From NCBI GenBank assembly GCA_032718475.1, contig JAUCBJ010006960.1, positions 1 through 64,000 of the forward strand: a stretch of DNA of 64,000 nt. Reading direction: 5' to 3'. Positions 1 to 49,133 of this stretch are shown here, one piece after another. The notes beneath the pieces are model-generated. The model saw only the letters and a program-made list of their open reading frames with translations, was not told the DNA's origin and did no database searches. Source of the DNA: Nemertoderma westbladi. Lineage: Eukaryota > Animalia > Xenacoelomorpha. The position numbers and the translations under genes were made by a program. Each line of letters begins with the position of its first letter. Within the stretch, counting starts at the first letter, position 1.

Positions 1-109
1 CAGTTAGGCCTAGCAGTATGCAGACTCTATTCCATTAACATACACCAGTACAGCAGTATACCAACCAACCAGACAGCCAGAAGCCAGATATTCATTCAGC
101 CACAATGCA

Positions 110-2101: not shown

Positions 2102-2177
2102 ATCGATATTTATTAAACTCTTCAATTGATTGGTTCATATCTTTAGTTAAACTGTTGTAGATATGAACCAGGGGGCG

Positions 2178-2411
2178 TGTAGTATATAGATACACTTAGG
2201 GAGTTTGAGTGGTGGAGGGAAATTCAAAAACGAGAGAAACACAGTTAGAGACTAGGTATATATTACCGGTACTAGCGTAGTGTGAGTGTGACCGTTATGT
2301 TACGCGCTGTCCAGCAGTAGACTGGACAGCACCATTACACCGTATATTAATTACTGAACGAATATATATTGTACTATGTTTATGTCATTTATGGACCTTT
2401 TATATACAACA
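2178..2411 (+). mobile_element. 3' LTR of the Gypsy element (234 bp)
   Basis: Preceded by purine tract AGGGGG (2170-2175). Begins TGTAGTATATA and ends TATATACAACA (imperfect terminal inverted repeat, TG...CA). BEL gag-like coding sequence resumes immediately after. Confidence 0.8.
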
Positions 2412-5306
2412 GACGCCGAGCGAGATATCCAGAATTTATCGCCCGTCGTCTCTCGCTTGCCCGCTACTACGTTGGCGACTCCCGCTTCGGCGGTCGAGTG
2501 GGTAGCTGAGGGACGACGGGAGATGGGTCTCCTGCTCGGGCAGCTGAGGGAACATTGTAAATGTTCCTCCCAGCAGGTCCGGGAGTTGGAAGGGACTGTT
2601 GAGCAGTTAAAGAGAGCAGTAAAAGAGGGTAGGTTAGCATTGCAAGAAGTGCAGCAGAGTATCGCGTCAGAACGCGATAAGTTAGTAAATTTACAAAAGG
2701 GTATACCACCACCCTCTGTAACAATGTGTCAACCTGTTAGGTCTGAAGTATTTCATGCGCAAGGTGTGGAGCCTACACGCATCTATACTGCTAGTGAAGT
2801 AGAAACTCCTATAGTAAACCCTATTAAGGGTAATTATAAACCTGTTGACAGTGATATTCCATATAGACTTGATAATAATCCGAGAAATTTATATACCGAT
2901 AACTCGATATTAAATAATACGATGGCCCAAGAAAGTTTTACGCGTCAAATGGCTAGAACCGAAGCCTGTCAAGCGGTAAAGATGGGAGAGATCGTCAAGT
3001 TCAATGGAGATGAGATGAAATGGTTACCTTTTAATGAATATTACAAAGATAACATACAGAACTCCGTGTTATCTAACGGAGAAAAGCTTAGATTCCTCAT
3101 CGAGTGCTTGGAAGGATCTCCCAAGTTAATGGCGTTAAAGTTTATTGGACATCCAGATGGATTAAGACAAGTTTGGGATACACTAAACATCAGGTATGGT
3201 AATAGGAATAACATAGCTAGGTATTTATATGCGAAATTAATGGCGCCCCGAAAGTTTCTTAGCAGCGGAATTATAGAGTTTTCCGACGAGATTCAAGAGA
3301 TCTGTAGACAACTAGATTGGTTAGGTAAGTCTCATGAATACCAGAATTCTATGGTTGTAGGAGCCTTAGCATCAACTCTGCCAAAGGGTGGAGTAGGTAC
3401 ACGCTGGGACAAGAAAGTATTATATATGATGGAGCAACAACGACGAGACCCTACCATGGCTGATCTCATGTCATTCTTGGATAGCGAGGTAAAACTACAG
3501 CTCCTAAAGCAATCCAGAGAGAAGATACCGGAAAATAAGGTAAGTGAGAAACCCGTTTCTAGGAGAAAGGTAATACCAGTGTGTTATACAGACGACGGCG
3601 AAAGCCAGACTTCTCGAGAGGAAGACAGTGGGAAAGACACTGAAAGATCTTACTATGACAACACAACGCCTAAGGACGTAAGTAAATTCAAGTCTCGAAC
3701 CAATGACAGGAGAGAACAGGTAAGAAAAACTCCTCCCACGTCTCCTAAAAGAATTCACGGAAGAAAGCCCGAGAAAAGAACGAGCGTGCACCACACAGCA
3801 CATGTTAAAGTAAGTAACATCAAGCCCAAATGTGTGTTGTGCGACGGGCCCCACCGTTTAAATGTGTGTAATGAATTCCTAAAGAAATCATTAAAGGATA
3901 GACGTGAAGTCATGTGGGATAAGCGGTTGTGTTATAATTGTCTCAGACGAGGACACCAACGGCGAACCTGTTACTCCGACGCAAGGTGTGCGAAGTGCGG
4001 CGCGAAACATCATATTTTGTTGCACACCGAATTCGAAAGAAACAGCCCGAGTCAGGTAAGTGAGTCCGAACTACATGTCCAATTCAGTGATGTGAACGAC
4101 ACTGACCAAAGTTCTGAGATGGAAGGATTCTATACGGACGAATTCTCCGACCAAAGTTCTGAAATGGAAGGATTCTATACGGACGAATTCTCAGACGAAA
4201 ACGAATCCTGTTACTTAATAAATACCGCAGTGTATCGAGCACTTACGTATGAGAAGGAAACCGACAGTGAGCTCCCCCTAACTACTTCTGATCGACAACC
4301 ATCTTGGAAAGCGCCAACTTCCAATGTAGGAATCCGAGAATTTCCTGTAGTACAGTTAAGGGTCCACGGACCTAAAAGGAGTTATATAGTGAACGCCCTC
4401 CTTGACTCCGGTAGCACAGGAACATTCATCGACAAAGAACTAGCCGAAGACATCTTTGCTGGACAACCCAAGTTCCGAACTAAGCTAAACATGGCAGGAA
4501 TTATGCAGGTTTGGAAATCTACCGTAATAGCGGATTATTATGTAGGCGCGTTGTCCACCCCCCAGGATGAACTAGGAGAACACAGCATAAGGTCAGTAAA
4601 AATGGTAGCGATAAAGAACTTCGCGACCAGCCAAGTGGAACCTTATAACTGGGATGAGGACGATTTCACCCAGCAGCTTGAAATACCTAGATTCAACACC
4701 GATTACCCTGGAGTCCAAATACTCATCGGTCAAAATGCGCATGAAGCGCTCGAGACATTGGAGAAACGGCCTGCTCAACCGCAACCACTACAAGTCTATG
4801 CGGGAAGAACTAGAGTAGGTTGGTACTTTACTGGCCCTTCTCGTAGAACTCTTATGGAAAGATTACCAAAAGAACAGGTATATCAATTAAGTGAACGGGA
4901 AGTGGAGAGCAGTGAAGTTGACGACCCAACTGAGGGAACACCATACTCCTCAGATAATGACGACATCAACTCCAATGTAGATCAATGGAGACATTGCCCC
5001 GAGACGATCAATCTAGCCGACATCGCTTCCAGAGGAGCAACTCCTCAAGAACTTACAGATACTCCAGACCGGTTAGGTGGACCCGACCTCCTAAGTAAAG
5101 AAGATGAATGGCCTCCTCATCTTACCCCGGTGAAGATTAGACAGGCCAAGGGAGCGGAGAAAGTAACACAACCACTCAATCGCCCAGCTGGTCGTTTATG
5201 TTTACTGGAAAGGGACCGAAAACTGTCCGGAAACTATGGAAGGCAAGATACTCTTCCCACGACCACCTCCCTAATCCAACAAATATCTAGGGACTCCATA
5301 ACGTAA
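2412..5306 (+). mobile_element. gag: BEL/Pao-type gag-protease ORF of a non-autonomous element, 5' part interrupted by the Gypsy insertion
   Basis: DUF1759-like KFNGDEMKWLPF; three BEL-type zinc knuckles (CVLCDGPHRLNVC, CYNCLRRGHQRRTC, CAKCGAKHHILLH); aspartic protease LLDSGS...ILIG...GW; only short pol remnants (WRHCPETINLADIASRG; RPAGRLCLLE). Confidence 0.88.
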
Positions 5307-6730
5307 CAACATACAGAGTGGGTGTTTGACTATATTATTTTATATTTATTTTATTATTTTATATTATGTATGTATTATTATGTAATTTTATTATAATCGT
5401 TTTCTTTAATTTTATTTAGTCAAATGTTATTTAGCGATTATTTAGTAGATTAGTGCAATATATTAGTGTTTATTACTTAATTACTTATATATTATATATT
5501 TAGTGCGATGGCGAGAAATAATCCTTTTTCTCTTTCCTTACTGTCCGTATCATATTATAAATACGTAACTACAGTAAGATGAAATATCCGTACTTATTAA
5601 AGTACAATAAAGCTCCTACTATATTCAAGTATTATTGGTAGGCAGAGTATTAGGAATGCAAAGTTCAGATCCTCGTGTCTCGGCTAAACCAAGCTCTGGG
5701 TAGACCTTGGAAACGACTTGCCTCTTCACACTGACATTGCTTCGTGCGATATTGCTCTCATACCGTATATTAAATAATACATATAGTAGCGTGATGTCCC
5801 TTTAACAGTAGCGTAAAACGCAAAATAAATCTGTTAAACCCTTTGACCATTTGCAATTCTAGTCGATTAAGATATCGCGGCACCCACCGATATACTTGAA
5901 AGACAAAATTCTAGAATCAGTGGTTAATGTCCCCAGACTTGTTCTGGAATAAACTGGTGCCCATCCTAAATATTAATTATTAATATTTACAAAATCTGTC
6001 GAATTTTGGATCCTTTAAAATTCTAGTCGATTAAGATATCGTAGCACATACCGATACTCTTAAAAAGACAAAATTCCTAGAATCAAGGATCCCAGTCCCC
6101 AGACATGTTCTGGAATAAAATTGTGTCTATTTAATATTAAATAATAAAATTTACGGGAATAAATTTAAATTCATCTTTTAATGAATTTGATAAATTGTTA
6201 TTTTATACAATTTATAATATTCCCAAAATTCCATTAATTAATAGATCATGGGAGCGGAGATTCACCTCTTAAGTGTATTAGTGTGCGAGAATCTCCAATA
6301 TAGAGTCAATAGCCTATAAAATTCATAAAGTCATATATAAAGATGATATTGACCATTAAAGACTTACTATTAAATAGCATCCCAGATCTGTATGCATGGG
6401 AATTACCCTAATTCTACCGCTAGCTTTCCATAATGTCACCATAGTAACAGCCACGCTAGAATTAGAAGTGAGTTAAAAGAACAATAAAACGCTTGCCCAT
6501 TGAATAGCATACGGAATAAATAGCACACCGCTAGTATCCAAGGATACCTAATAACAACGTGACATTCTGGAAGGCACTTGACTAACGGACAAATGACCCG
6601 AATGTGTGATAGAATGTGTACCATTTGTGACAGTTACGTGGAATTTGTGCGTTTGTAGGTGAATGTTACTACTAAGGTGTGTTTACAGTAGCGAGTCGCA
6701 ATTGTGAAAGTAGCCCTAACTCTCCAGTAA

Positions 6731-6910
6731 GAACCTGAAGTATATCTAAGCCTTTGGGACGGACGGTGGAGTGACTTGTGCTGGTTGTTGTAGTCGTTGT
6801 GCAGCTACGACGTTGGCGATAGGCACATCGACGAAAGTACACCAGCGCTGAGGATCTTGCACTGTCCGGGGGCAGAGAGGGGTAGGCAGCGACGCCCGCT
6901 CGCCTAAATA
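6731..6910 (+). other. Conserved GC-rich, probably structured cis-element in the BEL 3' region (copy 1)
   Basis: Ungapped alignment with the reverse complement of 30733-30913 (about 18 mismatches in 142 nt by hand count); a long hairpin is possible in both copies. Confidence 0.75.
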
Positions 6911-6925
6911 TAAACTCATTATAAT

Positions 6926-8470
6926 ATGGATAAACTTATATAGCAGATATGGCTGAGTTGATAGAAGATGATCTTGGTATCAGGGAGCGATATACTCTAC
7001 CTTTACAGGCGTTTGTTGATAGCTTGATACGCGGCGACGCTGGTCCAACTACTACGGAGGACGATGGTCGTTATATCTAACCGCCAATGTCCCGGGAGCA
7101 ACTTGCGCGTGGGTTGGACTGTAGAAAATTCACCGCTCGCTATACGCTTCGTAATGGTACGTATATGGACTTCTTAACTACTGGTCATCCTATCGACCTA
7201 CACGATACGAACGATATAGACACCAAAAGGGAAATGGTTTTATTTAAATATCATACCCAGCGGAAGCGGAACGATAAACTGAGACTCGAACACGAAAATT
7301 CTATTCGAAACCGACTCGAAAGTGCAGATGTTGAAGAGCCGGATAAACGCAGCGACTTCACCAAATACCTGGAATTCTTGAGAGAAACCTATCTCGATAT
7401 TACCAGTCAACAGAATCTAGAAACTCGATATCCTCAAGGTATACATCATGACCGCATGGTAGAACTCAAACGGCTCTATTCCACTATGATGTATCTAACC
7501 GCCGATCGACCGCTACCTGTTGTACCGGATAGCTTCGAACAGATGGAGGAATATTGTAAACTGGAGAAAGATCACTCGCGTTTCCCCTACAAGACGTGCG
7601 TCTTTGGTATTATTGCGATGAATGCCCTAGACCCAACCAACAAACGGAAAGACCTAAACATCCGTGGAGACGTTGTATTAAACACGGTTTTACTCGCTAT
7701 ACTTACGGGAGTTTCGAGCGAAATTTGTTTGACGTATCACCTACGCTCGTTCGACTCAGACGATCCTTAAATAAACCAATGATCAGAGTTACGGAATACT
7801 CGATCAGACCTCCTCATTCCCTAGTGAGACCTCAGACTCCTGATCCTATTAGTATGACGGATCCTCCCGAGCTGTACTCACTGTTCAAAGATCTAGTGTT
7901 ACCTGAACAATTAGTCGGTGGCACCCCGGTTGTGGGCTTCCTAGATATTAGCCCATCTTACTTAGCCGTATTGGGACGCGGACACCTAATATCGCCATTC
8001 AACTGTATAGTCGTCCCAGTTTAACGCGATACAACCCTTCATCAAGGTGGAGGAGAGCGTTGTACGAAACGAGTTAAACGCTATTCTACAAAGATCAGAA
8101 AGGAAACCTGCGTTTGTTCAGATAAACGTAAGTTGTAACAGCAAGTCCAAGCGATAAACGAATTGGCTTTATCTCAGTTCGATTGGGAAATCCAGAATCT
8201 CTAAGAAGATATCGAACTTAGACAACCCTATTCTCTGCGAGAGTTTTGGACGAACGTATCCAACGACAAGCGGAGGAAAATCAGCTCGAGGAGAAGCATA
8301 TCGAAATGGACGAGACCCCGACCGTAACCTTAAACCTTCTGATGCAATTGTATTGCACCCTTCACCCAGGAGTTATAGCCCTCCTAGTAAAGTGGCTCGC
8401 CCTAAAGAGAAAAGGACTCTTGCTAGCCTCAAGAAACTGCGTAAACGCCGTCCGCGCAAGAAAGACTAAC
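6926..8470 (+). pseudogene. Decayed accessory ORF of BEL element 1 (unknown product; intact segment 7087-7770)
   Basis: ATG 6949 is in frame with the 227-aa ORF across a single TAA. ATG 6926 joins it after a small frameshift. Coding-like sequence continues in shifted frames (7770-8024, about 8150-8470) up to the PPT. Confidence 0.5.
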
Positions 8471-8546
8471 TGTTTAGAGTATTTTTATATTTTAGAAACT
8501 GTGATTTTTATATTTTATATAATTAAATCCCATTTTCTGGGAGCGG

Positions 8547-9171
8547 TGTAAAAGCTTTTGGGGATATAACTGGCCTTTTCCATTTGTAATCCAGTTTTCC
8601 CCCATTCGCTCAAATCCTCTAAACTGTTGCTTCTAGTGGCACAATCCGCCCGCTGGTTGGCTGATTTGCTGTACACAAGGCCTCTTTGTTCTGTTCGATT
8701 AACCAATCAGAACAATGATCGACCAATCAGAGCGATTTAGCCTTGTGTTGGCTATGGGCTGCAAAGGCTAGGGAGGTTTGGCATTTAGACATTCATGGAA
8801 CTTATAGAAACTGGAACTCTGCCAATGAGAGCTTTTCCTCTTTGTGTTGAAAGCTACCTGCAACAGCTCACAGGGTTCAGTGTGTTGGTTTTCCTGATGC
8901 CATGAACATCGGCTATGGAATTATTCTGTTTTATTCCAACATTAGAACGACTTTAATTATAAGAACACATAACTGTTACCGGAACCGGCACGGTACAGCG
9001 GTACGAGACACTAAGAACACGAACGGTACGGTACATTGCACATTATTTACTGCTATTTACTGTTTGTTATTAATTGTATCAGTTGTTTACATATTGTTAT
9101 TTGGAGAATAACGATAAACGATCAGAAACCCCGATCTTCTTGATACACTAAGGTTAGAGAGACTGGTTACA
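8547..9171 (+). mobile_element. Probable 3' LTR of BEL element 1 (right end uncertain)
   Basis: GGGAGCGG|TGT junction, same PPT/LTR junction as element 2 (GGAGCGG|TGT); CCAAT boxes inside; candidate end GGTTACA at 9171. Confidence 0.55.
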
Positions 9172-24941: not shown

Positions 24942-25069
24942 GTGAGTAAATAAATTTACTTATTTTTTGTAAAATTTCTTAAAATTTAATACCTATATAT
25001 TTTTTATGAATCAGCTAATAAGAAACAAAATACCCTCCAAAAATAAAAATCTTTGTTATCGAGCAAAAA

Positions 25070-27767: not shown

Positions 27768-29322
27768 TGTTAAGTGCAATCCCAAATCCCCCGAAAGGGC
27801 AGAATTAACCGAGATCAAAACTGAGGGAAAGCTATCGCTATTGCGAGTAAATGTTTTAATTCAATGGTGGAGACCTCAACACCTTTTTTACAGCAGCGCT
27901 CACAATAAGTAAGTTCAATAGATATTTGTCGTTCGATTTTGGCAGGCAGTAAAGGCTAACATATAAAGTACTGTAAAACACCAGCAACCAAAACAATAAA
28001 CCAAACCTATATCAGAATGTACAGCAATTATGGCTGAAAATTCGTAATTCATGCTAGACCAGTAGGCTCTTCTAACTAATCCCAAAACGAGCAAATACTA
28101 ATTTTTTATCTTTCAAAATATGTATAAACAAATAAATAAATTTTATACTTACAACAGTTTGGTTGTCAATCTATACGGAATTTAGGATACTAGGGCTGAG
28201 AAAGAAATAATTAAATGGCCTAACTATTTTACCATCCCAAATGTTCCCTCAGCGCTATAATAACCACCAATTTATCCGTAGGGCCTAAGAATGATCACAA
28301 ACTATCTAAAATAATTATTAGAAAATTAGTAAGTTAGAATTCCTAACGTGTTATGGTAGACCTAGCTACCGGTCTGCCGGTACATGAATTAGAAATCAAT
28401 ATAGGGGCCTCTGAAAACTATAATCTAACCCCTTCACCAATTGGCCTACAGCCTTAGCACTTAGGGGCAATTGATTGACATTTACTAATCCAATTTTAGC
28501 GAGCCCAAACTTATGCCTAATGGTTCGATCAACTTCCCTGATAGTCCAATTTTGCTTCCGTACCGCCACTGATGTCCCACATCCCATTGCCGGCCTCACC
28601 GCACCGCAGCTAATCTTAGCCGGACATCGCGAATGTTTTCGATAATTGACTCATGTCAGAATGCGATCTGATCCGTTAATCAGGAACAACAATGTTATTG
28701 AACGTGTTCTAATCGACTAAGACATTATATTGAATATCGTATCACAGTATCACAGTTTTATATCAAACACATCCAGACATCAGACATCTGAATGCAAAAC
28801 AACACTGTCAAAATTTAAATACACGTCCAAATGTAAAAGATTAAACCATATAACGTACCGGTACTGCGGTACTTAATGCAGTAACAGAGTAAATGAATGA
28901 ATATATATATAACTTCAATTCTACATTGAAACAAGCATAAAAAGAATTCAAAGGCTGTCATTGGCTAATCATGTTTAAAAAGCCTTAATTTGAAAATACC
29001 TCCAGCAGGGCTTAGTTATACTGTACTGTATAATAATAATAATCTGGAAATAATTATAGATACTGGACAATTAACCGACTGGTGATTTATCAGATAATCA
29101 GGTAGTATTTCACATAATGAATCGTACAGTATTTCTACTGCAGTAAGTAAAGGAACTGAAACAAACTTAACTTTAAAGAGAATCCATAAGATTTTCGTTA
29201 ATTAATATAGTAGAATATAGGTATAGAATATAGGTTTTATACTTTAAACGTACAGTAGAAGTTATCGGAACAATATAACGATTATAAAATAAAATTTTTA
29301 TACTCTTACCAAATACAATACA
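27768..29322 (-). repeat. 3' LTR of BEL element 2
   Basis: Near-identical to 39506-41060; preceded on the - strand by the PPT. Confidence 0.95.
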
Positions 29323-30732: not shown

Positions 30733-30913
30733 ATATATCAGGGAGCGTGTGAGCTGCCTCCCCCTCAATGCCCCCCGGACAGCGCAAGATCCTCAGCGCT
30801 GTTGTACTGTCGCCGCTGTGCCTCTCGCCAACGTCGTAGCTACACAACGACAACAATAACCAGCGCGAGTCACTCCACTGTCCGTCCCAAGGGCTTAGAA
30901 TTACTTCAAATTC
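30733..30913 (-). other. Conserved GC-rich, probably structured cis-element in the BEL 3' region (copy 2)
   Basis: Reverse complement is ~87% identical to 6731-6872; 16 contiguous WC/GU pairs possible (TATTGTTGTCGTTGTG / CACAGCGGCGACAGTA). Confidence 0.75.
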
Positions 30914-31065
30914 AAATGGGATGTAATAAATAATAAAAGTGTTGTCGGTATTCCAGTACACAATAATCCGCTCCTATGTGTAATCGGACGTAATCCGAAA
31001 TACACATAACAGACACTGGAATATCGAGCACTAGAACACCACAGTAAAATAAAGTACACTTTATT

Positions 31066-34000
31066 TTACTTTGTCTTCTTGGAGGTTTTTACATTTCCTA
31101 TCTCATATAATTTGTGGGAAGTATAATCACTGGGTTTTTTAAAGATTTTGTAGTCTCCAGTCTGACAACGTGACTCTTCTAATAAAACGAGATGTTGCAC
31201 TGGTCTAGTTACTACATGTTTGTCTAGTGTTCTAACTGTCACAGTTCGAACTGTTCCGTCTGATCCTGGATGAACTGCTACTACAACACCTGTTAACCAG
31301 TGACGCCGTTTTAGGTTCGCCTCGGCTAAGAGAACAGAATCTCCTTTACAAAGATTCCTTGTTGTTTGATACCATTTACTTCTGGCTGAAATAGTGGGCA
31401 AATAGTGTTGTCGCCATATTTCCCAGAAGTTATCTGCTAACAATTGTACGATTTTCCACGCTTTCCTGGAGTACAGATCGCTGTCATCTGGGACAGAGAT
31501 TGGTACAAGTGGTGCGGGAGATTGCATTAATATATGGTTTGGTGTCAGGGCAATAACGTTGTCTGACCTGTCTGGCACCAGTGCAATCGGTCGAGAATTC
31601 AAAGTATACTCGATCTCTGTGAAAAGAGTCACTAGTTCATCGTCTGTGAGTACTTTGTTCGGTGGGATGGTCTTATGGAACGCCAATTTTATGGATCGTA
31701 TAAGACGCTCCCAGCTACCGCCTCTCCAGGGGCTGTCAGCCGTGTTAAAGTTCCATGTGATACGACTGGGTATTAATTCGGCAGCAATTTTATCATGGTC
31801 AATAGTATTAAGAGATTTATTAATCTCGTTGTCCCCACCGACAAAGTTCGTACCTTGGTCACTATAGAAAGCCTGAACCAACCCGCGTCTGGCTATGAAC
31901 CGACGCAAAGCAAGTAATAAGGCATTTGTGGACATGTCTGTGACGCGTTCAATGTGTACCGCACGGGATGCCATACAAATGAATATGACACCCCAACGTT
32001 TTACCATCGACCGTGCACGCTTTGTGAGGATTGGACCAAAACAATCCAGTCCCGTATGGGTAAATGGTGATTGGTGTGACTGCACTCTAGCTAAGGGTAG
32101 TTCACTCATTTGTTGCTGGGTAATGCGTGCGTTCAACTTTTTACAAACTATACAGTTTGATAGAACTGTATTTAATGCCTTTGTTGGTTTTATTAAGATA
32201 AAACGTTGTCTTAACAAAGAGATGCAATGTGAACGGCCAGCATGTTTCAGCTTCAAGTGAGCATCCCATATCATGGCGCATTGTAATTCTAAGTATGCTG
32301 GGATTATAATTGGATATATGAAGTCTCGTGCTAGGTCTGTAGCTTGTAATCTAGACCTGTGACAAAGGAGTCCTTTGTGTATGGTCGGGCTCAACCTGAC
32401 TAATGGGGAAGAACTAACCGCTTTCTTAATCATAATGGCGTTGTACTCACGGGTGTAACTTCGCAGCTGAAAATGAAGGATGATCTTCAATTCCGCCTGG
32501 TCTATTTCCTCGATAGATAGTCTCCTGGGAAATCCTCTAATAACCCTTTGTCTCCAATCAGATAGTGAGTATTCCTTTGATTTACCCAAGAATTTACTAA
32601 GTCTACTGATCCAAGCGGCTTTCCTACATAGCTTTAGCCAAGATGAACTGGAATTTACTAACCTGACAAAGAAATTCCTTAAATTACTGTTAAGTGGTTG
32701 TGTTACCATAACATTAGGCGGTGGCTGTGATGCCACATTTTTTACAAGATCTTGCTTACTATTGGTCAAGGGTGATTCTAGAAATATCGCTTTTACTTCA
32801 TCGAATTTTTCATCACCAGGAACTGGATGCATGTCAATATATTCATCGTCGTCTGATATATCTAGGGCTAGGTCAACTTCGGACTCAATCTCTAAATTAA
32901 TATCTGAATCTGGCGGATTTGGCGGTGGTAACGACGCAGGAACTATATCACTTGTATGTGTCACTCGCGATCTTAGATTATATAATGTGGTACGGGACGT
33001 AATCTCCTTTCTGTCTAACATCTGTTCACTCATGGCATTTCTCGGCCGCTCCATATAATTATTTGACATTACCTGATCAGTCAATGATGTTGGTATATGG
33101 GATAAACCTGTGGCCTTCGCCTTTGACTTCTTTACTTTCTCGATCTTAATCTCCGCTTCCGGTGGAAGTTTATGTAAGTGGCAGTGAAAGATTGGAGGCC
33201 AATGCTCTGTTGACTTCCTTAAGAATTTGGGTCCATGCAGCCAGAAATCTTGATTATCTGGTTGACAAAACTCCGTCGGCATCATTCCTCGCGAGGCAAT
33301 GTCTGCGGGGTTGCGATCACCCGGACAGTGACGCCAGTCTTCTGTGATAGTAAAATCTAAAATCCCGGCTTTCCGATTTGCAACAAATGTCTTAAATTGT
33401 ACATCATCAATATTTAAGTACATTAATACTAAAGTGGCATCAGTCCAATAGGTTATATGTAAACGTATCCCAATCTCGCGTTTTATGAGTTTCGCAATGG
33501 TTACGCCTATCAAGGCGGCTTGTAGCTCACCCCTCGGTATGTTCATATATTTAATTGGCATAGTTTTAGCTCTAGACGTAATGAGCGATGTCTCAAACTC
33601 ACCTGACTCAGTCTCTCTCCTGAGGTATAAGGCAACTCCTAACCCATTCGAGCTTGCATCACTAAAGCAGTGGAGTTCCAACTCAGTAGGAAAAGTTGTC
33701 TGATCTGGAAAATATAGTCTAGGAAATTCTAATTCCTGCAGAGCTCCCAACTCTGCCTCCCAGAGTCTCCACTTACCTGCATGTTCTGAGGATATTGGCT
33801 CATCCCAACCGATTCCAGTTTGCCAAATGCTACGAAGATATATCCTTGCCTGTAATACAACGGGGCTAATGAGGCACAGCGGGTCGAATAGTCGACTCAT
33901 TGTGGATAGGCATTTCCGCTTAGTCAATGTCTCAGCTGGCGGCAGTACTTGGACACGCACCTGGAAGTTATCATTATTTGGATTCCATCCTAGGCCGAGG

Positions 34001-35037
34001 ACCTTCGATGTGGGGGTATCCTCAAACTCTAGCTCGATGTCGCCGCTCCTCCGATCTTCTGAGGGAAACGAGTTGATTAGTTTGGCTGAGTTAGAAGTAA
34101 ACTTTGTTAACCGGAATCCTCCAGTCTTCAGACACTCCTGTAAGCCATGGGAAATTTTAATTGCTTGCTCCTCGGAATCAAAACAGTCTAACCCATCATC
34201 CATGTAGAAGTTATCACCTACTGCCTCAATTACTTCAGCAGGGAAATGTTCACTTTGTCTTTTTGCAGTTTCTTTCAAAACAAAGAGGGATCCATTTGGG
34301 CTATCTCGTGCTCCAAAAATTCTAACCAACATTTGATATGTGATAGGTTCACCAGACAAGTCGTCATTTGGATACCAAAGGAACCTTAGGCTGTCCTTAT
34401 CTTTCTTTAAGGCAAATACTTGGTGGTACATAGCTTCTATGTCGCATGCAAAAGCGAATCTACGTCTCCTAAAACGAAGCAATATCCCGATCAGGTAATT
34501 ATTTTGATTTGGGCCATCCATAAGCTCAGAGTTGAGCGACATTCCTAAATATTTCCTACGACAATCGTTAACAACTCTAACACGTCCAGGTTTATCAGGG
34601 TGAATGATATAATGATGAGGAAGATAGTATGTCTGATCAGTAGTTCTGTCTGGGTAATCCATTTTCTCAGCATATCCCTTTTCTAAATAATTGTTTATTT
34701 GAAATCGGTATTGCATGTGTATCTTTTCGTCTCGCAACAATCGTGTACGGATAGATTGAAGGCAACGTAAAGCTAGTGGTCGATTATTAATGAGTTTTGG
34801 CTTGTCGTGTCGCAATAGCATTCCTACCTCAAAATGCCCATTTGGTAGGCGATTAATAGTATTTCTCATTATATCAAGGGAACGTTTGTCATTCGCTGAC
34901 ATCGCTATATCGTAGCTACCAGGTTCCATAGCATATTCTTCTAGCCATTTAAGGGTCCGATAATTCATTTCATGATCTTGGTCCATGAGATCACGGATGT
35001 ACTCAATATCTTCAACTTCAGCTGAGGGATTACACAT
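31066..35037 (-). CDS. pol: BEL/Pao pol (RT, RNase H, integrase)
   Basis: YYLPHH, CDIEAMYHQV, FYMDD (RT); HCFSDAS, NPADIASRG (RNase H); H..H..C..C, DCFGP, SDQGTNF, WERLI (integrase); DUF5641-like C-terminus. Confidence 0.95.
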   Translation of the reverse strand: MCNPSAEVEDIEYIRDLMDQDHEMNYRTLKWLEEYAMEPGSYDIAMSANDKRSLDIMRNTINRLPNGHFEVGMLLRHDKPKLINNRPLALRCLQSIRTRLLRDEKIHMQYRFQINNYLEKGYAEKMDYPDRTTDQTYYLPHHYIIHPDKPGRVRVVNDCRRKYLGMSLNSELMDGPNQNNYLIGILLRFRRRRFAFACDIEAMYHQVFALKKDKDSLRFLWYPNDDLSGEPITYQMLVRIFGARDSPNGSLFVLKETAKRQSEHFPAEVIEAVGDNFYMDDGLDCFDSEEQAIKISHGLQECLKTGGFRLTKFTSNSAKLINSFPSEDRRSGDIELEFEDTPTSKVLGLGWNPNNDNFQVRVQVLPPAETLTKRKCLSTMSRLFDPLCLISPVVLQARIYLRSIWQTGIGWDEPISSEHAGKWRLWEAELGALQELEFPRLYFPDQTTFPTELELHCFSDASSNGLGVALYLRRETESGEFETSLITSRAKTMPIKYMNIPRGELQAALIGVTIAKLIKREIGIRLHITYWTDATLVLMYLNIDDVQFKTFVANRKAGILDFTITEDWRHCPGDRNPADIASRGMMPTEFCQPDNQDFWLHGPKFLRKSTEHWPPIFHCHLHKLPPEAEIKIEKVKKSKAKATGLSHIPTSLTDQVMSNNYMERPRNAMSEQMLDRKEITSRTTLYNLRSRVTHTSDIVPASLPPPNPPDSDINLEIESEVDLALDISDDDEYIDMHPVPGDEKFDEVKAIFLESPLTNSKQDLVKNVASQPPPNVMVTQPLNSNLRNFFVRLVNSSSSWLKLCRKAAWISRLSKFLGKSKEYSLSDWRQRVIRGFPRRLSIEEIDQAELKIILHFQLRSYTREYNAIMIKKAVSSSPLVRLSPTIHKGLLCHRSRLQATDLARDFIYPIIIPAYLELQCAMIWDAHLKLKHAGRSHCISLLRQRFILIKPTKALNTVLSNCIVCKKLNARITQQQMSELPLARVQSHQSPFTHTGLDCFGPILTKRARSMVKRWGVIFICMASRAVHIERVTDMSTNALLLALRRFIARRGLVQAFYSDQGTNFVGGDNEINKSLNTIDHDKIAAELIPSRITWNFNTADSPWRGGSWERLIRSIKLAFHKTIPPNKVLTDDELVTLFTEIEYTLNSRPIALVPDRSDNVIALTPNHILMQSPAPLVPISVPDDSDLYSRKAWKIVQLLADNFWEIWRQHYLPTISARSKWYQTTRNLCKGDSVLLAEANLKRRHWLTGVVVAVHPGSDGTVRTVTVRTLDKHVVTRPVQHLVLLEESRCQTGDYKIFKKPSDYTSHKLYEIGNVKTSKKTK

Positions 35038-35090
35038 AACCTTATTGTAGTCTGGTCTACTTAGTACTTCAGTGAAATTCCTAGCATCAC

Positions 35091-38000
35091 TTAAGAATGT
35101 AAAAGCAGTTTCACCACGTATATTACTGTCGTCTTGATCAGAATCCTATATTCTATATCCTTCATTCTGTATCCTATAGAAATATTTCTATAGTTAACAT
35201 TACATTCCGGGATACCTAAACATCCGAAGTATTCTCGTTCTTGTTTGGTCAAAGCAGGCACTCCCCCCAAAAGTCCAGAAAATTCTTTCAAAGCAATGAA
35301 GGATACATTCTTTATTGGTAGTAGACTTTGTTCTGGTAGAGTGTGATGATTTCGTGGTAATAAGGAATCTAATGAGAGGTTTATCGATTTACCATTTAGT
35401 TCTCCTTGTCCATGTATAGATCCTAAATCGATCCTACGGCTCTTCGCACTCAAAGTGTCCGTAACAGCGCTGGCTACTTCTAAATCTACATAGCTATGGG
35501 TAGAGGCAGGATCTAGTATGACATAAATTCTCTTCGTTCCATGTTCTCCAATAATCTTAATGGGAATTACGCTAAATGAAGCAGATTGTACTGCTGTAAG
35601 GTATGTATTTGCACATATGATGTCATCAATATTAGTGGCATCAGTATCTCCTACCTGACACTCATCCTTTTCATCATCCTCATCTGAAGAACCGGATTGA
35701 TCAGCATTGACTGAAGCAAATGTAACCTTATTTGGGATTGGGTTAGGATTTCTAGCAATCCTACTTGGATGGTCCATGATATATTGTTTTGTAGGAGTGT
35801 GCTGACTAGTATGTAGCAACCGATGATGCAACCTACCACAATCTTGGCATCCTTTCTTTATGGTGTCTGGACATTCTCGGCGTTTATGACCAGTGGAAAG
35901 ACACTTCCAGCATGCATCTAAAGATCGTATTGCCAGTCTTCTCTTATCGACGTCGAGTTTTGTAAAGAAATCGCAACAATGCAATTTATGATCCATATGT
36001 TTTTGAGATTGCTGATAACAATATTGGCAACCGCGAAAGTTGGAGGGTAGCTCCTGACGCTCCAGGGTCACTCCTATGGGGGCTGAAACTTTACTCTTCT
36101 CCAATTGGTATCGCGATTTTGATATATTCGAGTCAGTCCCAGTTGGTCCTAAAGTGTTGTAGGTTAGACACATCCCCTCTGTTGTCATCAAGGATTTAGG
36201 TTTTGCTATTGAGCGCCTTTCAACCTGTAAATATTCTTCAGAGTAATTTGAACGGGAATCTGCGAGTGCTTTTCTAGCGATTAACTCATGTAAGTGTCGT
36301 AACTTTAAAGTCTCTCCACGTTCTTCTATTTTGCTCTCTAATTTCCGCCACTTTTGACGGTGACGGTAACTTAATCTTCTAATTATATCTTTCAAGATGT
36401 CTGGTCTATCTCCATAGTTTTCACAACCAATATCCGGTAATATTGATATTGCATTCTTTATTTCATCCGCTAGTTTTAATAATTCATGAGATGTAGAAAT
36501 AGGACCACCTTTTCCAAGTTCATCTACAATGGATTGAGCCACCCTGGTGTTACTTCCATATACAGAGGTTAATCGCTCATAAGTATGCTGAAATGCATTT
36601 GGGTTTCCTGTAAAAGTCTCAGCTAACCCTCTAGGTTCCTTCTGTAGTAGTTGTAACAGGTAATTGAATTTCTCATTTGAACTGAAATCCTTTTCTTTTA
36701 TTTGGGAGTCAACATAATTTATAAAGGTGCGCCAATGTTTTGCATTACCATTAAAACATGGAGGTTGTTGGGTTGGCAGACTCTGGCGAGCAGCAAAGCG
36801 AGCAATTTCGGTAAGGACAGCCGTAGTCTCTGTCTGTTTTTCCTTCTCCTTCACCAAACTAGATTTATTTCCTCTTTGAAATTCTCCACAGAAACTGCTA
36901 GAAGAGCTCTCAACAACCTCGGAATATAAATTTTGATGTGGGGTTGAACGACGCTGTGCATACGTCGAATTGAAGTGAATCTTCTTTGACAAACTTGGCT
37001 CTCTAACTGGATTTTGTGATATTTCCTCCATTTCTGAATCAGTTTTTAAGTTTCTCCGGACTGGTGTGTCCATCCAATCAACTTTTTCTTGAACTTCCTT
37101 CAGTTGTTGTAGTAAAGGTGCATTGCATTCTTGCATAGCAGCTTTCATTTGCTCAATTGAAACCTTCGGTTCTATGGGAGTCTCAAAATCAAATAGATCG
37201 AACTTATCGGCTCTGTGTGAATGTTCCCAATTCTGTGAGTAGGGCTCATCGCCACCAGTTCTATACCTCTCCCGAGATCTATTACCATAATGATACCAAG
37301 GATTCTGGGGAAGTAGATATCTTTCCCTACAAACGAAACATGGGCAATCTCTTTCATGAGGCTGTGGTCTGTGCTCGCCCTCACATTGCCAACGTTTGTC
37401 TACAAATTTGTTTGGGGTATACAGCGGTTGGAAGGGTTTCTCGTATGGCTTTGTCTCAGGCTTCCTCACTATGTTCTGGTTTAGTCGAGGAATGGGTCGT
37501 TCTTGGTGAACTTCTTGTGCTATCCTGCCCTTATGCAATGACGATACATATGCTTCTGTTAGAGGGAACCTTCTTTGGGCGGACTCACATATGATTGGAG
37601 CTTCCTCCACTTGGTCTATAATACTACTGTGCTCTTCTTCATACTGCTGCCTATCATTTACCAACTCAAGCCGTGCATCCTGCAACTGAGCTCGCTTATG
37701 TTCCATTTCAATCTCATGGATACGCCTTCGTTGCTTTAATTCTAATTCTCTCCGCTTTTCGTCAACTTGTGCGCGTCTCTGTGCATGTTGATGCTCTAAA
37801 TTTGCCGCTGCTTCACGCTGTTGCCTCTGCAATTCATCACGCAAATGCTCTGCTTCTTGGGCTGCAGCTTGTGCTTCACGCCTAAATTTAGCTGCTGCTT
37901 CCTCATGCCGAAGTTTAGCTTCTTCTGATTCCAGCTGCTCTTGCTGCTTTAAATCTGCTTCTTGTGCTGCTAATTTATGTATCTCCTCTTCAGCGAGTTC

Positions 38001-38789
38001 AACTTCCTGCCTATGCGCTTCCTCTACTTCGAGCTTTCTCTCTTCAACTGCAATTAGTCTATCTCGTTCTGTGAACGCTCGCAGGGCCTTTTGTGATTCT
38101 GTTATCGAACTCCGACTACGTACTACACTCGTACTTCGTCGCGACCTTGTTGTGCTTTGGCTGGCAACAGATAAAACTTCCGCTCCACTGTTTAACCCAC
38201 TCACTGTCTCTTGGTTTGCAGTTAATGGCAATGGTAATCCAATGATAACTACTCCTCTCTTACTTAAATAACGGGTTAATTTAGTAACTCGATGCTGAGT
38301 CTCAACCACAATACGTTCCTCTGATTCTCTAAACTCGACTTCATTGACTGTTAGAGATTCACAAACTGCTTCGCTCCATCGTGTATTACGAATTTGGGAA
38401 AAGTGTTCAATTACTCTTATATAACTCACTCTTGCCTTTTTCAATTTCTCGAATAAGAAAGTCAGGGTTTTATTCTCTTGATATTTTTCTGCTCTATCCA
38501 CAAGAGCTTGTAGTTCAGCTACTGGATGGATCATCTGGGTGTTAAACTTACCTTGTAACTCCAAAAGTTGTTGTCTGTCTAATGTAGCACCCTCTTGTAA
38601 TAATAATGTAATCACCTTGTTTGTGCACTTTGTAATTTGTGCCATATACCCACCAGCACTCCTACTTATCGGTGGCCCTCTTTGTGAATCTAAACTACTT
38701 ACTCTCACCACCTCCTCTATTTCGTCATCGTTTGAGTCAGAACCTACTAGAGTTATGTCCTGTATAGTCGATGTCCTATGTATACTCAT
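35091..38789 (-). CDS. gag: BEL/Pao gag-protease (protease C-terminal half damaged)
   Basis: Coiled-coil N-terminal region, FNGNAKHWRTF (DUF1759-like), three zinc knuckles, protease ILDPAS; the expected ILIG...GW segment is missing. Confidence 0.9.
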   Translation of the reverse strand: MSIHRTSTIQDITLVGSDSNDDEIEEVVRVSSLDSQRGPPISRSAGGYMAQITKCTNKVITLLLQEGATLDRQQLLELQGKFNTQMIHPVAELQALVDRAEKYQENKTLTFLFEKLKKARVSYIRVIEHFSQIRNTRWSEAVCESLTVNEVEFRESEERIVVETQHRVTKLTRYLSKRGVVIIGLPLPLTANQETVSGLNSGAEVLSVASQSTTRSRRSTSVVRSRSSITESQKALRAFTERDRLIAVEERKLEVEEAHRQEVELAEEEIHKLAAQEADLKQQEQLESEEAKLRHEEAAAKFRREAQAAAQEAEHLRDELQRQQREAAANLEHQHAQRRAQVDEKRRELELKQRRRIHEIEMEHKRAQLQDARLELVNDRQQYEEEHSSIIDQVEEAPIICESAQRRFPLTEAYVSSLHKGRIAQEVHQERPIPRLNQNIVRKPETKPYEKPFQPLYTPNKFVDKRWQCEGEHRPQPHERDCPCFVCRERYLLPQNPWYHYGNRSRERYRTGGDEPYSQNWEHSHRADKFDLFDFETPIEPKVSIEQMKAAMQECNAPLLQQLKEVQEKVDWMDTPVRRNLKTDSEMEEISQNPVREPSLSKKIHFNSTYAQRRSTPHQNLYSEVVESSSSSFCGEFQRGNKSSLVKEKEKQTETTAVLTEIARFAARQSLPTQQPPCFNGNAKHWRTFINYVDSQIKEKDFSSNEKFNYLLQLLQKEPRGLAETFTGNPNAFQHTYERLTSVYGSNTRVAQSIVDELGKGGPISTSHELLKLADEIKNAISILPDIGCENYGDRPDILKDIIRRLSYRHRQKWRKLESKIEERGETLKLRHLHELIARKALADSRSNYSEEYLQVERRSIAKPKSLMTTEGMCLTYNTLGPTGTDSNISKSRYQLEKSKVSAPIGVTLERQELPSNFRGCQYCYQQSQKHMDHKLHCCDFFTKLDVDKRRLAIRSLDACWKCLSTGHKRRECPDTIKKGCQDCGRLHHRLLHTSQHTPTKQYIMDHPSRIARNPNPIPNKVTFASVNADQSGSSDEDDEKDECQVGDTDATNIDDIICANTYLTAVQSASFSVIPIKIIGEHGTKRIYVILDPASTHSYVDLEVASAVTDTLSAKSRRIDLGSIHGQGELNGKSINLSLDSLLPRNHHTLPEQSLLPIKNVSFIALKEFSGLLGGVPALTKQEREYFGCLGIPECNVNYRNISIGYRMKDIEYRILIKTTVIYVVKLLLHS

Positions 38790-39493
38790 GGTCGGTAAAT
38801 TTTAATTCTGTATTTCTGTATAACCTTCCGGTCAGTATATATCTAAATATATTTTCTAATTTTACTTGAAGTTGTGCTGCTCCTACAGCGGTAAACTTTC
38901 TAAAATATTTTTAATATTTCCTTCAAATATTATATTTTTTATACACAAATATAATAGGCGTAACGGTTTCCCGGCACGACAAAGATGTGGAGTTCTAAAA
39001 ACATAGTGGACAAACTGGAAGCATTTAAATAAATCATAAAATTAACTTGCCGCAAAACTTTCACAGGTCTCACAGACACAGAGATACAGGTAATGCAACT
39101 AACCCCAGGAGCGTTTCAATTTTCCTCGCGTCCCAATCTGAGCTGCAGATTTTCATTCTGCGAACTTCTTTTTGTACCAAACTCGTAAACATCAACAGAT
39201 CCCAGAATCAGTTGGAAAGTCTCCCTCTGTACCTGAAAGTCGTATAGAAACTTTAAACGGCGCCTACTAATTTTATTTCCTGCAAATAAACTTTAAATTT
39301 AAATTTTTAACCTTTTTTGGCTACCAAATATCTATTCAACCTCCTTTACATAATTTTGGAGCTGATATTTTAATTTTAGAAAATATTTTGTATTTCTGCA
39401 AAACGGAATAATTACAGAAAGACTGATTATTTTCTAAAAATGTTATTTGCTAAGTATTTTGTAAATCAGCTGGGATTTACAGCTTTGATTTTT

Positions 39494-39506
39494 TATATTG
39501 ATTTCT
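39494..39506 (-). promoter_or_regulatory. Primer-binding-site position, complementary to LTR-internal sequence 40129-40141 (putative self-priming site)
   Basis: + strand TATATTGATTTCT (39494-39506) is the exact reverse complement of AGAAATCAATATA (40129-40141); no TGG on the element strand until 39326. Confidence 0.6.
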
Positions 39507-41060
39507 GTTAAGTGCAATCCCAAATCCCCCAAAAGGGCAGAATTAACCGAGATCAAAACTGAGGGAAAGCTATCGCTATTGCGAGTAAATGTTTTAATTC
39601 AATGGTGGAGACCTCAACACCTTTTTTACAGCAGCGCTCACAATAAGTAAGTTCAATAGATATTTGTCGTTCGATTTTGGCAGGCAGTAAAGGCTAACAT
39701 ATAAAGTACTGTAAAACACCAGCAACCAAAACAATAAACCAAACCTATATCAGAATGTACAGCAATTATGGCTGAAAATTCGTAATTCATGCTAGACCAG
39801 TAGGCTCTTCTAACTAATCCCAAAACGAGCAAATACTAATTTTTTATCTTTCAAAATATGTATAAACAAATAAATAAATTTTATACTTACAACAGTTTGG
39901 TTGTCAATCTATACGGAATTTAGGATACTAGGGCTGAGAAAGAAATAATTAAATGGCCTAACTATTTTACCATCCCAAATGTTCCCTCAGCGCTATAATA
40001 ACCACCAATTTATCCGTAGGGCCTAAGAATGATCACAAACTATCTAAAATAATTATTAGAAAATTAGTAAGTTAGAATTCCTAACGTGTTATGGTAGACC
40101 TAGCTACCGGTCTGCCGGTACATGAATTAGAAATCAATATAGGGGCCTCTGAAAACTATAATCTAACCCCTTCACCAATTGGCCTACAGCCTTAGCACTT
40201 AGGGGCAATTGATTGACATTTACTAATCCAATTTTAGCGAGCCCAAACTTATGCCTAATGGTTCGATCAACTTCCCTGATAGTCCAATTTTGCTTCCGTA
40301 CCGCCACTGATGTCCCACATCCCATTGCCGGCCTCACCGCACCGCAGCTAATCTTAGCCGGACATCGCGAATGTTTTCGATAATTGACTCATGTCAGAAT
40401 GCGATCTGATCCGTTAATCAGGAACAACAATGTTATTGAACGTGTTCTAATCGACTAAGACATTATATTGAATATCGTATCACAGTATCACAGTTTTATA
40501 TCAAACACATCCAGACATCAGACATCTGAATGCAAAACAACACTGTCAAAATTTAAATACACGTCCAAATGTAAAAGATTAAACCATATAACGTACCGGT
40601 ACTGCGGTACTTAATGCAGTAACAGAGTAAATGAATGAATATATATATAACTTCAATTCTACATTGAAACAAGCATAAAAAGAATTCAAAGGCTGTCATT
40701 GGCTAATCATGTTTAAAAAGCCTTAATTTGAAAATACCTCCAGCAGGGCTTAGTTATACTGTACTGTATAATAATAATAATCTGGAAATAATTATAGATA
40801 CTGGACAATTAACCGACTGGTGATTTATCATATAATCAGGTAGTATTTCACATAATGAATCGTACAGTATTTCTACTGCAGTAAGTAAAGGAACTGAAAC
40901 AAACTTAACTTTAAAGAGAATCCATAAGATTTTCGTTAATTAATATAGTAGAATATAGGTATAGAATATAGGTTTTATACTTTAAACGTACAGTAGAAGT
41001 TATCGGAACAATATAACGATTATAAAATAAAATTTTTATACTCTTACCAAATACAATACA
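39506..41060 (-). repeat. 5' LTR of BEL element 2
   Basis: Near-identical to 27768-29322; lies upstream of gag on the - strand. Confidence 0.95.
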
Positions 41061-41806
41061 GGTTTACTGTGGAAGAACACCCATGGTGTTGAACAGGCAT
41101 TCCTTTGGGAAACGTAGTGGAAGGGTTTACTGTGGAAGATCACCCATGGTGGTGAACAGGCATTCCTTTAGGAAACAGAGTGGAAGGGTTTACTGTGGAA
41201 GATCACCCATGGTGGTGAACAGGTATTACTTTAGGAAACAGAGTGGAAGGGTTTACTGTGGAAGATCACCAATGGTGGTGAACAGGCATTCCTTTAGGAA
41301 ATAGAGTGGAAGGGTTTACTGTGGAAGATCACCCATTGTGGTGAACTGGCATTCCTTTAGGAAACATAGTGGGAGGGTTTACTGTGGAAGATCACCCATT
41401 GTGGTAAACAGGCATTCCTTTAGGAAACAGAGTGGAAGGGTTTACTATGGAAGATCACCCATGGTGGGGAGCAGGTATTCCTTTAGGAAAAAGAGTGGAA
41501 GGGTTTACTGTGGAAGATCACCCATTGTGGTGAACAGGCATTCCTTTAGGAAACAGAGTAGAAGGGTTTACTTTGGAAGATCACCCATTGCGGTGTACAG
41601 ACATTCCTTTGTGAAACAGAGTGGAAGGGTTTACTGTGGAAGATCATCCATGGTGATGAACAGGTATTCCTTTAGGAAACAGAGTGGAAGGGTTCACTGT
41701 GGAAGATCACCCATTGTGGTGAACAGGCATTCCTTTGGGAAACAGAGTGCAAGGGTTTACTGTGGAAGATCACCCATTGTGGTGAACAGGCATTCCTTTA
41801 GGAAAC
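41061..41806 (+). repeat. 63-bp satellite, right part
   Basis: The same unit resumes in register after the TSD. Confidence 0.95.
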
Positions 41807-49036: not shown

Positions 49037-49133
49037 TGATTTTTCTACTTTAAAATACATTTTATTGAAAAATAATTGCGGTAGATAAATAGATAAAAAA
49101 TTCATATAAATATAAATAAAACAAAAGTGATCT

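What the first reader, a model, noticed from the sequence alone, without database searches (positions are those of the whole stretch)
6731..6910. ~180-nt structured non-coding element shared by two divergent BEL retrotransposons, directly ahead of an accessory ORF
Seen: 6731-6872 and the reverse complement of ~30772-30913 align without gaps at ~87% identity, although I see no nucleotide similarity between the two elements' LTRs or gag genes. Many substitutions preserve a long hairpin: GGAC(G/A)GTG with C(A/G)CTGTCC, G(T/C)GCTG with CAGCGC, and up to 16 contiguous pairs below an invariant AGCTACGACGTTGGCGA apex. A second G/C hairpin follows. In element 1 an ATG lies ~16 nt downstream. Inference: an undescribed cis-acting RNA, such as an IRES for the 3' ORF, a CTE-like export element, or a packaging signal that lets the non-autonomous element use the autonomous one's machinery.
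Basis: partly seen in the sequence, partly recalled or inferred. Interest (0 to 1): 0.8.

Follow-up and report, generated by a model that had tools for sequence, protein, structure and literature searches.

The report
Portable RNA hairpin of BEL retrotransposons
Two very distantly related BEL/Pao jumping genes of an animal share a 170-base stretch whose variants mostly keep one long RNA hairpin intact; it was likely swapped between them and likely serves as a docking site for a host protein that exports or routes their RNA, but no function has been tested.

Summary
The shared block is real: 6731-6872 matches 30772-30913 (minus strand) at 125 of 142 bases, in two BEL elements whose Gag proteins are 21% identical. 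It folds on the sense strand only. Family variants favour pair-tolerant transitions (15 of 46 sites versus 2 of 32, p=0.005). Between the two window copies no pair changes on both sides. There is no Rfam match. Corrections: the apex loop varies; the ATG 16 nt downstream opens only 5 codons; element 2 has no ORF behind the motif, which argues against a general IRES. New here: element 1's family is highly diverse in public contigs while element 2's flanks are single contigs; one contig has the motif in a third context; the apex 16-mer recurs in a hairpin at element 1's gag start; element 1's 3' ORF shows third-position bias but has no homolog. Best reading (0.42): a portable protein-binding signal on full-length RNA, working like a CTE/MTE export or routing element, spread by recombination. 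Rivals: packaging handle, translation element, passenger. Side finding: element 2 looks self-priming. Function is untested.

The parts
6736..6906 (+). Shared structured motif, copy in element 1 (non-autonomous BEL)
   Evidence: sense fold -68.7 vs antisense -51.9 kcal/mol
6760..6868 (+). Main hairpin: 39 pairs in three helical blocks, with bulges on the 3' strand (6859, 6849, 6840-41)
6772..6774 (+). 5' side (UGA) of a predicted 3x3 internal loop with tandem G.A pairs, opposite 6853-6855 (GAU). No listed variant except 6855, but loose ends of a diverged subfamily differ at 6853
   Evidence: the non-canonical pairing is inferred
6803..6822 (+). Apex: fixed flanks around a variable loop (6809 G/U/A, 6811, 6812); likely a 4-bp hairpin on an asymmetric loop. 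ViennaRNA prefers another pairing, which the 6809 variants would break
6883..6906 (+). Second, shorter G/C hairpin
30738..30908 (-). Shared motif, copy in element 2, 158 nt after the pol stop and 1.4 kb before the PPT
   Evidence: sense fold -79.9 vs antisense -50.7
2441..2520 (+). Strong hairpin at the start of element 1's gag ORF; an in-frame ATG (2523) follows closely
   Evidence: z -4.75
2463..2478 (+). Second copy of the apex 16-mer: 15 of 16 identical to the window copies, and matching the common family variant at the loop base
   Evidence: third and last hit of the covariance model in 64 kb, E 3.2; post hoc expectation about 5e-6
2358..5306 (+). Element 1 ORF, 982 codons stop to stop: BEL gag (DUF1759), zinc knuckles, protease motif, then in-frame scraps of the RNase H end and the integrase tail; no RT
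6716..6727 (+). Splice-acceptor-like site (CTAAC, pyrimidines, CAG) just upstream of the motif, in element 1 only; use not shown
6926..6943 (+).
6949..7770 (+). Orphan 3' ORF of element 1, 273 codons, broken in this copy by a stop at 7078; 8 of 11 listed family variants fall on third codon positions (p 0.009)
   Evidence: no homolog
8539..8550 (+). Element 1 PPT and start of its 3' LTR; GGAGCGG|TGTA is shared with element 2
31066..35145 (-). Element 2 pol ORF (Pao peptidase family, integrase, DUF5641), 1359 codons; nearest relatives are about 40% identical over the integrase region
35091..38801 (-). Element 2 gag-protease ORF, in another frame than pol (programmed shift or break, not resolved)
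39506..41060 (-). Element 2 5' LTR, 1555 bp, 2 differences from the 3' LTR; 5-bp target duplication
27768..29322 (-). Element 2 3' LTR

Best explanation
The block is a structured RNA element on the full-length transcript of BEL retrotransposons, likely exchanged between families by recombination and likely acting as a docking site for a host protein that exports or routes the RNA, in the way retroviral constitutive transport elements do. Shown: sharing, sense-strand folding, pair-tolerant variation, position 3' of pol, and a second apex copy in element 1.
For: Sense folds are 17 and 29 kcal/mol better than antisense. Transitions occur at 15 of 46 pair-tolerant sites vs 2 of 32 intolerant ones (p 0.005; Watson-Crick pairs only, 10 of 32 vs 2 of 32, p 0.011), and both exceptions have a changing partner, 6782/6844 and 6789/6836 (from the variants listed). 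Element 2's copy lies within the spread of element 1's family while Gag is 21% identical, which points to exchange rather than descent. Similarity ends at the edges of the fold. A third flank context is seen in 1 of 11 contigs of run X4 (record 18). The position between pol and the 3' LTR is where export elements usually lie (PMC4588558, first part of text), and such an element has been gained by recombination between retroviral groups (PMC11379458, passages). No ORF follows in the young element 2. The loop bases vary, which does not suit a fixed kissing loop.
Against: No function, binding partner or transcript was shown. There is no Rfam match to any element at E up to 10. The variants are unphased, cut lists (40 of 77 rows), and the fold was derived from the same copies, so the test is partly circular. 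Six pair-breaking alleles are listed, two of them common: 6828 and 6835 at 41-53% of laid depth in X1 and X3. Partner frequencies at the two 'compensatory' pairs do not match well (6782: 63-78%; 6844: 18-37%). In element 1 the block sits 43 nt before a conserved ORF and 9 nt after an acceptor-like site, which suits a translation role. The shared PPT/LTR start suits a shared helper and so a packaging role. In the 5' hairpin the 16-mer is predicted to pair differently; forcing the apex fold costs 3.6 kcal/mol.
Confidence: 0.42

Rival explanations
1. Packaging or co-packaging handle: the block is read by element-encoded Gag or Pol, so the RT-less family rides in, or draws Pol from, particles of an autonomous family such as element 2.
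For: Element 1 lacks RT and integrase. Both elements share GGAGCGG|TGTA at the PPT. The diverse family is the RT-less one, and the element with a long pol ORF is covered by single contigs. The apex 16-mer also lies in a 5' gag hairpin, where packaging signals usually sit (usual position recalled). Exchange by template switching itself implies co-packaging at some time (inference).
Against: Element 1 keeps a 982-codon Gag ORF only 21% identical to element 2's, so one Gag-specific signal for both is unlikely. Element 2 has no apex copy at its 5' end. The loop varies, and the apex self-duplex is modest, -12.5 kcal/mol.
Confidence: 0.2
2. Translation element for a 3' ORF: an IRES, or the structured 5' UTR of a spliced subgenomic mRNA, that drives or times the orphan ORF of element 1.
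For: The ORF at 6949 begins 43 nt after the block and shows third-position bias (8 of 11). An acceptor-like site lies 9 nt before the block. The 5' hairpin with the same 16-mer is also followed by an in-frame ATG. 3' ORFs of LTR elements are typically made from spliced messages (PMC5408684, passages).
Against: Element 2 is young (2 LTR differences) yet has no ORF behind the block in any frame and no acceptor-like site by the same rule. A 5-codon upstream frame lies in between in many copies.
Confidence: 0.18
3. Passenger or independent small repeat: the block matters in one family only, or is a small mobile repeat, and element 2 picked it up by chance.
For: Only two window copies and one partial third context were seen, and the third is not shown to be a BEL element. 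Element 2's window copy has a pair-breaking base at the position equivalent to 6842. An earlier unchecked note on this genome found a nested repeat inside a BEL pol.
Against: In runs X1 and X3 at most 1% of laid contigs run on into unlike sequence, and the listed loose ends at the block's edges are nearly all element-1-like. No target duplication, terminal repeats or tRNA-like boxes were seen by eye. The block has the element's orientation in both cases, and element 2 took the whole fold.
Confidence: 0.11
4. Rev/RRE-like pair: an orphan protein from element 1's 3' region binds the block and exports any RNA that carries it, so element 1 supplies export and element 2 supplies Pol.
For: Element 1's 3' ORF looks conserved and has no homolog. 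A later frame there ends in a Lys/Arg-rich tail. Element 2 has the block but no such ORF.
Against: There is no evidence of RNA binding. The basic tail lies in a separate, broken frame.
Confidence: 0.07

Closest known systems
Constitutive transport elements of retroviruses and retroelements: MPMV CTE, musD MTE, SERV-K/MER11 CTE, RSV DR (PMC4338338, PMC4588558, PMC5767303, PMC11379458, PMC3856414)
   Same: Non-coding, structured, on the genomic RNA between the coding region and the 3' LTR; one known case was gained by recombination between unrelated groups.
   Different: No sequence match found; 170 nt against about 400 (MTE) and about 750 (MER11); 1.4-1.6 kb from the PPT rather than next to it; in BEL/Pao elements of an invertebrate; activity untested.
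Egl-BicD localisation signals, including the I-factor ILS (PMC13186709, passages)
   Same: Long stem-loop with helices of 6 bp or more separated by short stems with 3'-strand bulges; a retrotransposon precedent exists.
   Different: Much longer and GC-rich; has a fixed apex sequence, while those signals tolerate loop variation; the host is not known to use Egl; no Rfam match.
Non-autonomous LTR elements that keep cis signals: TR-GAG, LARD, TRIM (PMC4350172, passages)
   Same: Element 1 is gag-only and must be moved in trans; such elements must keep recognition domains for a partner's proteins.
   Different: TR-GAG1 had no notable leader structure. Here the shared signal is 3' of pol, joins families with 21% identical Gag, and is followed by an orphan ORF.
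Extra 3' ORFs shared between retroelements of bdelloid rotifers (PMC5408684, passages)
   Same: Module exchange in the 3' region of LTR elements.
   Different: There the shared modules are genes; here it is a non-coding fold, and the ORF is not shared.

Membership tests
BEL/Pao LTR retrotransposon (host elements) | DUF1759 gag, Pao peptidase/RT-RH region, integrase with DUF5641, TG..CA LTRs, 5-bp target duplication | tested here: met
   Element 2. Element 1: gag plus pol scraps only.
CTE (MPMV/NXF1 type) | Strong primary-sequence conservation of a core with Nxf1-binding internal loops | tested here: inconclusive
   No Rfam match, but I did not check that Rfam holds a CTE model, and the passages read did not give the loop sequence.
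CTE-like export elements (functional class) | Position between the coding region and the 3' LTR on unspliced RNA | tested here: met
   158 nt after the pol stop in element 2; 1430 nt after the ORF stop in element 1.
CTE-like export elements (functional class) | Promotes export and expression of an intron-retaining reporter without an element protein | not testable with these tools
   Needs a reporter assay.
musD MTE | About 400 nt, many stem-loops, next to the 3' LTR | tested here: not met
   170 nt, two hairpins, 1.4-1.6 kb from the PPT (paper features).
musD MTE | Kissing loop and pseudoknot | not tested
   No systematic pseudoknot search was run.
IRES for a 3' ORF | An ORF directly downstream in every carrier | tested here: not met
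   Present in element 1, absent in element 2.
IRES for a 3' ORF | Cap-independent initiation | not testable with these tools
   Needs a bicistronic assay.
Packaging/dimerisation signal (psi/DIS) | Conserved self-complementary loop | tested here: not met
   Loop bases vary, including a shorter loop in one loose end.
Packaging/dimerisation signal (psi/DIS) | Specific binding by Gag/NC | not testable with these tools
   Needs a binding assay.
Egl-BicD localisation signal | Helices of at least 6 bp separated by a short stem with 3'-strand bulges | tested here: inconclusive
   Such bulges are predicted at 6849 and 6859; the feature is generic, and the bend and U-A contacts were not tested (paper).
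SECIS element | RUGA/GA core with unpaired AA about 11-13 nt above it on a short helix (features recalled) | tested here: not met
   A GUGA/GA loop is present, but no AA follows and the helix runs on for about 27 bp; no Rfam SECIS match.
Known ribozymes and other Rfam families | Match to a covariance model | tested here: not met
   0 matches at E up to 10 in 6500-7100; 0 at gathering score in the window.
SINE/MITE | Many unrelated flanks, target duplication, terminal repeats or a tRNA head | tested here: not met
   At most 1% of laid contigs run on into unlike sequence in X1 and X3; no tRNA. Contigs are short, so this is not genome-wide proof.
miRNA precursor | One arm fixed in sequence, loop free (recalled) | tested here: not met
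   Both arms vary while the apex flanks are fixed.

The most novel reading that the evidence does not exclude
BEL/Pao families in this animal trade a stand-alone RNA 'passport'. An RT-less, highly amplified family carries its recognition site twice and pairs it with an orphan protein that may act like Rev, while unrelated autonomous families, one of them self-priming, have captured the same passport. This would be a cross-family parasite-helper network held together by one RNA fold.
Probability: 0.12. Interest if true: 0.85.

Novelty: new variant of a known kind. Interest (0 to 1): 0.55.

Why it matters
My searches found no description of a cis-acting structured RNA in BEL/Pao elements (open-access library only). 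A short fold kept at 88% between families whose proteins barely align marks a step of the life cycle (export, routing or packaging) that is portable, and it gives a 170-nt test object with a built-in pointer to the binding site: the fixed apex flanks, repeated at the 5' end. It would also show how an RT-less family can outgrow its helpers.

Tried and rejected
No host genome was held, so no genome-wide search was possible. Pattern scans of public collections gave chance hits only: 1 viral locus, 1 bacterial metagenome locus, 0 for a degenerate apex pattern; a first window pattern had too short a gap and found 0. No BEL relative in viral contigs (8 pattern hits, 0 confirmed). No phage match. Orphan ORF piece 7081-7767: no homolog among 187 candidates, 1.84 billion representatives, PDB or Pfam; the single-sequence model had pLDDT 40.6, so no fold search was run; the Atlas gave no answer. 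Element 1 gag residues 190-560 found no hit. No RNA holder listed; X5 is only guessed to be RNA, so expression, ends and splicing are open. X6 gave 0 laid contigs, which may be false. The covariance model from two copies gave 16 weak matches with filters off in 1-6600; the best (E 0.009, Gypsy pol, minus strand) matches mainly the second hairpin and is taken as chance. Earlier scan notes held nothing on this sequence. Rejected: SECIS, known ribozymes, miRNA precursor, SINE/MITE (see membership tests); DNA cruciform (strand asymmetry); a kink-turn at the G.A loop (not kept in a diverged subfamily, loose ends); protein homology between the two 3' regions (best E 0.53 outside the block). The Legiewicz 2010 MTE paper was not held and was seen only through two reviews. 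No supplements were read.

Full report
Observation. The block 6731-6872 matches the reverse complement of 30772-30913 without gaps at 125 of 142 bases. blastn gives E 5e-49, and it is the only hit between the two elements in the window self-comparison. Looser similarity runs from 6736 to about 6906. Rfam gives 0 matches at E up to 10 around copy 1 and 0 at gathering score in the window.

The carriers. Element 2 is a BEL/Pao element on the minus strand: LTRs 41060-39506 and 29322-27768 (1555 bp, 2 differences, 5-bp target duplication), gag 38801-35091 and pol 35145-31066 in different frames. The motif starts 158 nt after the pol stop. Element 1 has one 982-codon ORF with BEL gag, a protease motif and short in-frame scraps of the RNase H end and integrase tail, but no RT. 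Its leader is interrupted by a Gypsy element, so its 5' LTR is not in the window. The Gag proteins are 21% identical. Apart from the motif I found only the PPT/LTR start GGAGCGG|TGTA in common.

Is it an RNA structure? Both copies fold better than shuffles (2 and 0 of 200 shuffles as good) and much better in sense than in antisense (-68.7 vs -51.9, and -79.9 vs -50.7 kcal/mol). Between the two copies, of 54 pairs 9 change on one side and stay paired, 5 break and 0 change on both sides. Public contigs add variants (one search shows 40 of 77 rows, all 29). Over 39 pairs, transitions occur at 15 of 46 sites where pairing survives and at 2 of 32 where it would not (p 0.005; Watson-Crick pairs only, 10 of 32 vs 2 of 32, p 0.011). 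Both exceptions have a partner that also changes, 6782/6844 and 6789/6836. Against this: the variants are unphased, the fold came from the same copies, partner frequencies differ, and six listed alleles break pairs, two of them common (6828, 6835). I take selection on a sense-strand RNA fold as likely; formal covariation is not shown.

The apex. It is not invariant. 6809 is G, U or A, and 6811 and 6812 vary, while the flanks do not among the listed variants. This fits a small hairpin with a free loop better than the ViennaRNA optimum, and a protein site better than a kissing loop. The same 16-mer occurs once more, at 2463-2478, inside a strong hairpin at element 1's gag start. It differs from the window copies only at the variable base and is the third of 3 hits of a covariance model in 64 kb, though weak (E 3.2). 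The post hoc expectation is about 5e-6. There it is predicted to pair differently; the apex fold costs 3.6 kcal/mol more.

Distribution. On element 1's 501 nt, 4764 (X1) and 1311 (X3) short, diverse contigs were laid. Element 2's flanks are covered mostly by single long contigs with 0-1 differences, while its motif draws hundreds (782 and 352 laid in all). Depth is no copy number, but this suggests a large, diverse element 1 family and a rare or uniform element 2, whose motif lies within element 1's spread. With Gag so distant, exchange by recombination is the simplest origin (inference). At most 1% of laid contigs run on into unlike sequence in X1 and X3, which argues against a free SINE or MITE. 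In X4, 1 of 11 contigs (record 18) covers 30753-30895 with 11 differences and has 168 and 41 loose bases; the 30 shown at each end are mostly unlike both elements, so a third context exists, of unknown nature. A second species label (X5) holds element-1-like copies. No genome was held, and collection scans gave chance hits only.

The downstream ORF. The ATG at 6926 opens 5 codons and is lost in about 30% of laid depth. The long ORF starts at 6949, runs 273 codons and is broken by a stop at 7078 in this copy. It looks like a real gene: 8 of 11 listed variants are at third positions (p 0.009). The piece after the stop has no homolog. An acceptor-like site lies at 6727. In element 2 all three frames close within 10 codons, and the first ATG is 55 codons on, although the element is young. 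So a general IRES role is not supported, while a translation role in element 1 stays open.

Mechanism. A signal that works behind two unrelated Gags, sits 3' of pol on the genomic RNA and moves as a whole fold is most simply read by a host protein. Export elements usually lie between the coding region and the 3' LTR (PMC4588558, part 1 of 2 of the text; PMC3856414 and PMC5767303, passages). One was gained by recombination between retroviral groups (PMC11379458, passages). Nxf1 binds internal loops of the CTE (PMC4338338, passages). Routing signals read by Egl are stem-loops with 3'-strand bulges and include a retrotransposon case (PMC13186709, passages). I put export or routing at 0.42, packaging at 0.20 (shared PPT, RT-less partner, 5' apex copy; PMC4350172, passages), translation at 0.18 (PMC5408684, passages), passenger at 0.11 and a Rev-like pair at 0.07. 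Every functional step is inferred.

Novelty. It works, by inference, like known cis-acting transport elements, but it is not shown to be a member of any family; MTE, SECIS, known ribozymes and SINE/MITE fail their tests. Searches of the open library (listings) showed no such element for BEL/Pao; subscription papers and Repbase/Dfam were not searchable, and no supplements were read. PMC12440569 (passages) had nothing on priming. Side finding: element 2 lacks a TGG-type primer site, and its first 12 post-LTR bases are complementary to its own LTR at position 920 (3 of 10168 control positions), as in Tf1-type self-priming, which the passages read do not list for BEL. An earlier unchecked note on this genome warned that non-coding inserts in BEL elements here can be nested repeats; I did not check that note, but tested the same idea for this block as above.

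Verdict. A real, likely selected RNA fold shared between BEL families; new variant of a known kind; function open; interest 0.55.

Noticed in passing
window 39505-39494 and 40141-40130 (minus strand, element 2): No TGG-type primer site follows the 5' LTR. Instead the first 12 bases are exactly complementary to LTR positions 920 onward (13 with the LTR's last base); only 3 of 10168 internal 12-mers have a complement in the LTR. This suggests Tf1-like self-priming in a BEL/Pao element. The passages read list self-priming for Tf1/Sushi, Tcn1 and TAR/Houba/Osr-1 only.
   Followed up: partly
window 2463-2478: Second copy of the apex 16-mer inside a strong hairpin at element 1's gag start; both hairpins also have a bulged U in the same local GC-U-GAG context.
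   Followed up: partly
window 30921-31040 (minus strand): A long hairpin directly upstream of the motif in element 2, the strongest in the scan (z -7.5), with no sequence match in element 1.
   Followed up: partly
window 5827-6154: Tandem duplication of about 165 bp (78% identical) in element 1's 3' region; each unit folds into a hairpin.
   Followed up: no
window 14-2339: End of a Gypsy element (RNase H, integrase; LTR about 2178-2339, judged by eye) sitting 37 nt before element 1's first ATG, so element 1's 5' LTR and primer site lie outside the window.
   Followed up: partly
window 7779-8551: Further short, broken and overlapping frames after the orphan ORF; one ends in a Lys/Arg-rich tail, another has hydrophobic stretches. 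No Pfam hit.
   Followed up: no
window 25000-27767 and 41061-41806: Element 2 is inserted in a 63-bp satellite; a 17/20-bp satellite lies at about 20.4-24 kb.
   Followed up: no
window 29746-30277: Stop-free frames of 129 (minus) and 114 (plus) codons in element 2's 3' region, about 460 nt or more past the motif; no Pfam hit.
   Followed up: no
window 46328-50728 and 59660-64000: A 4.4-kb direct duplication (98%) holding a 16-bp minisatellite and a DUF6451 piece of a LINE-like element.
   Followed up: no
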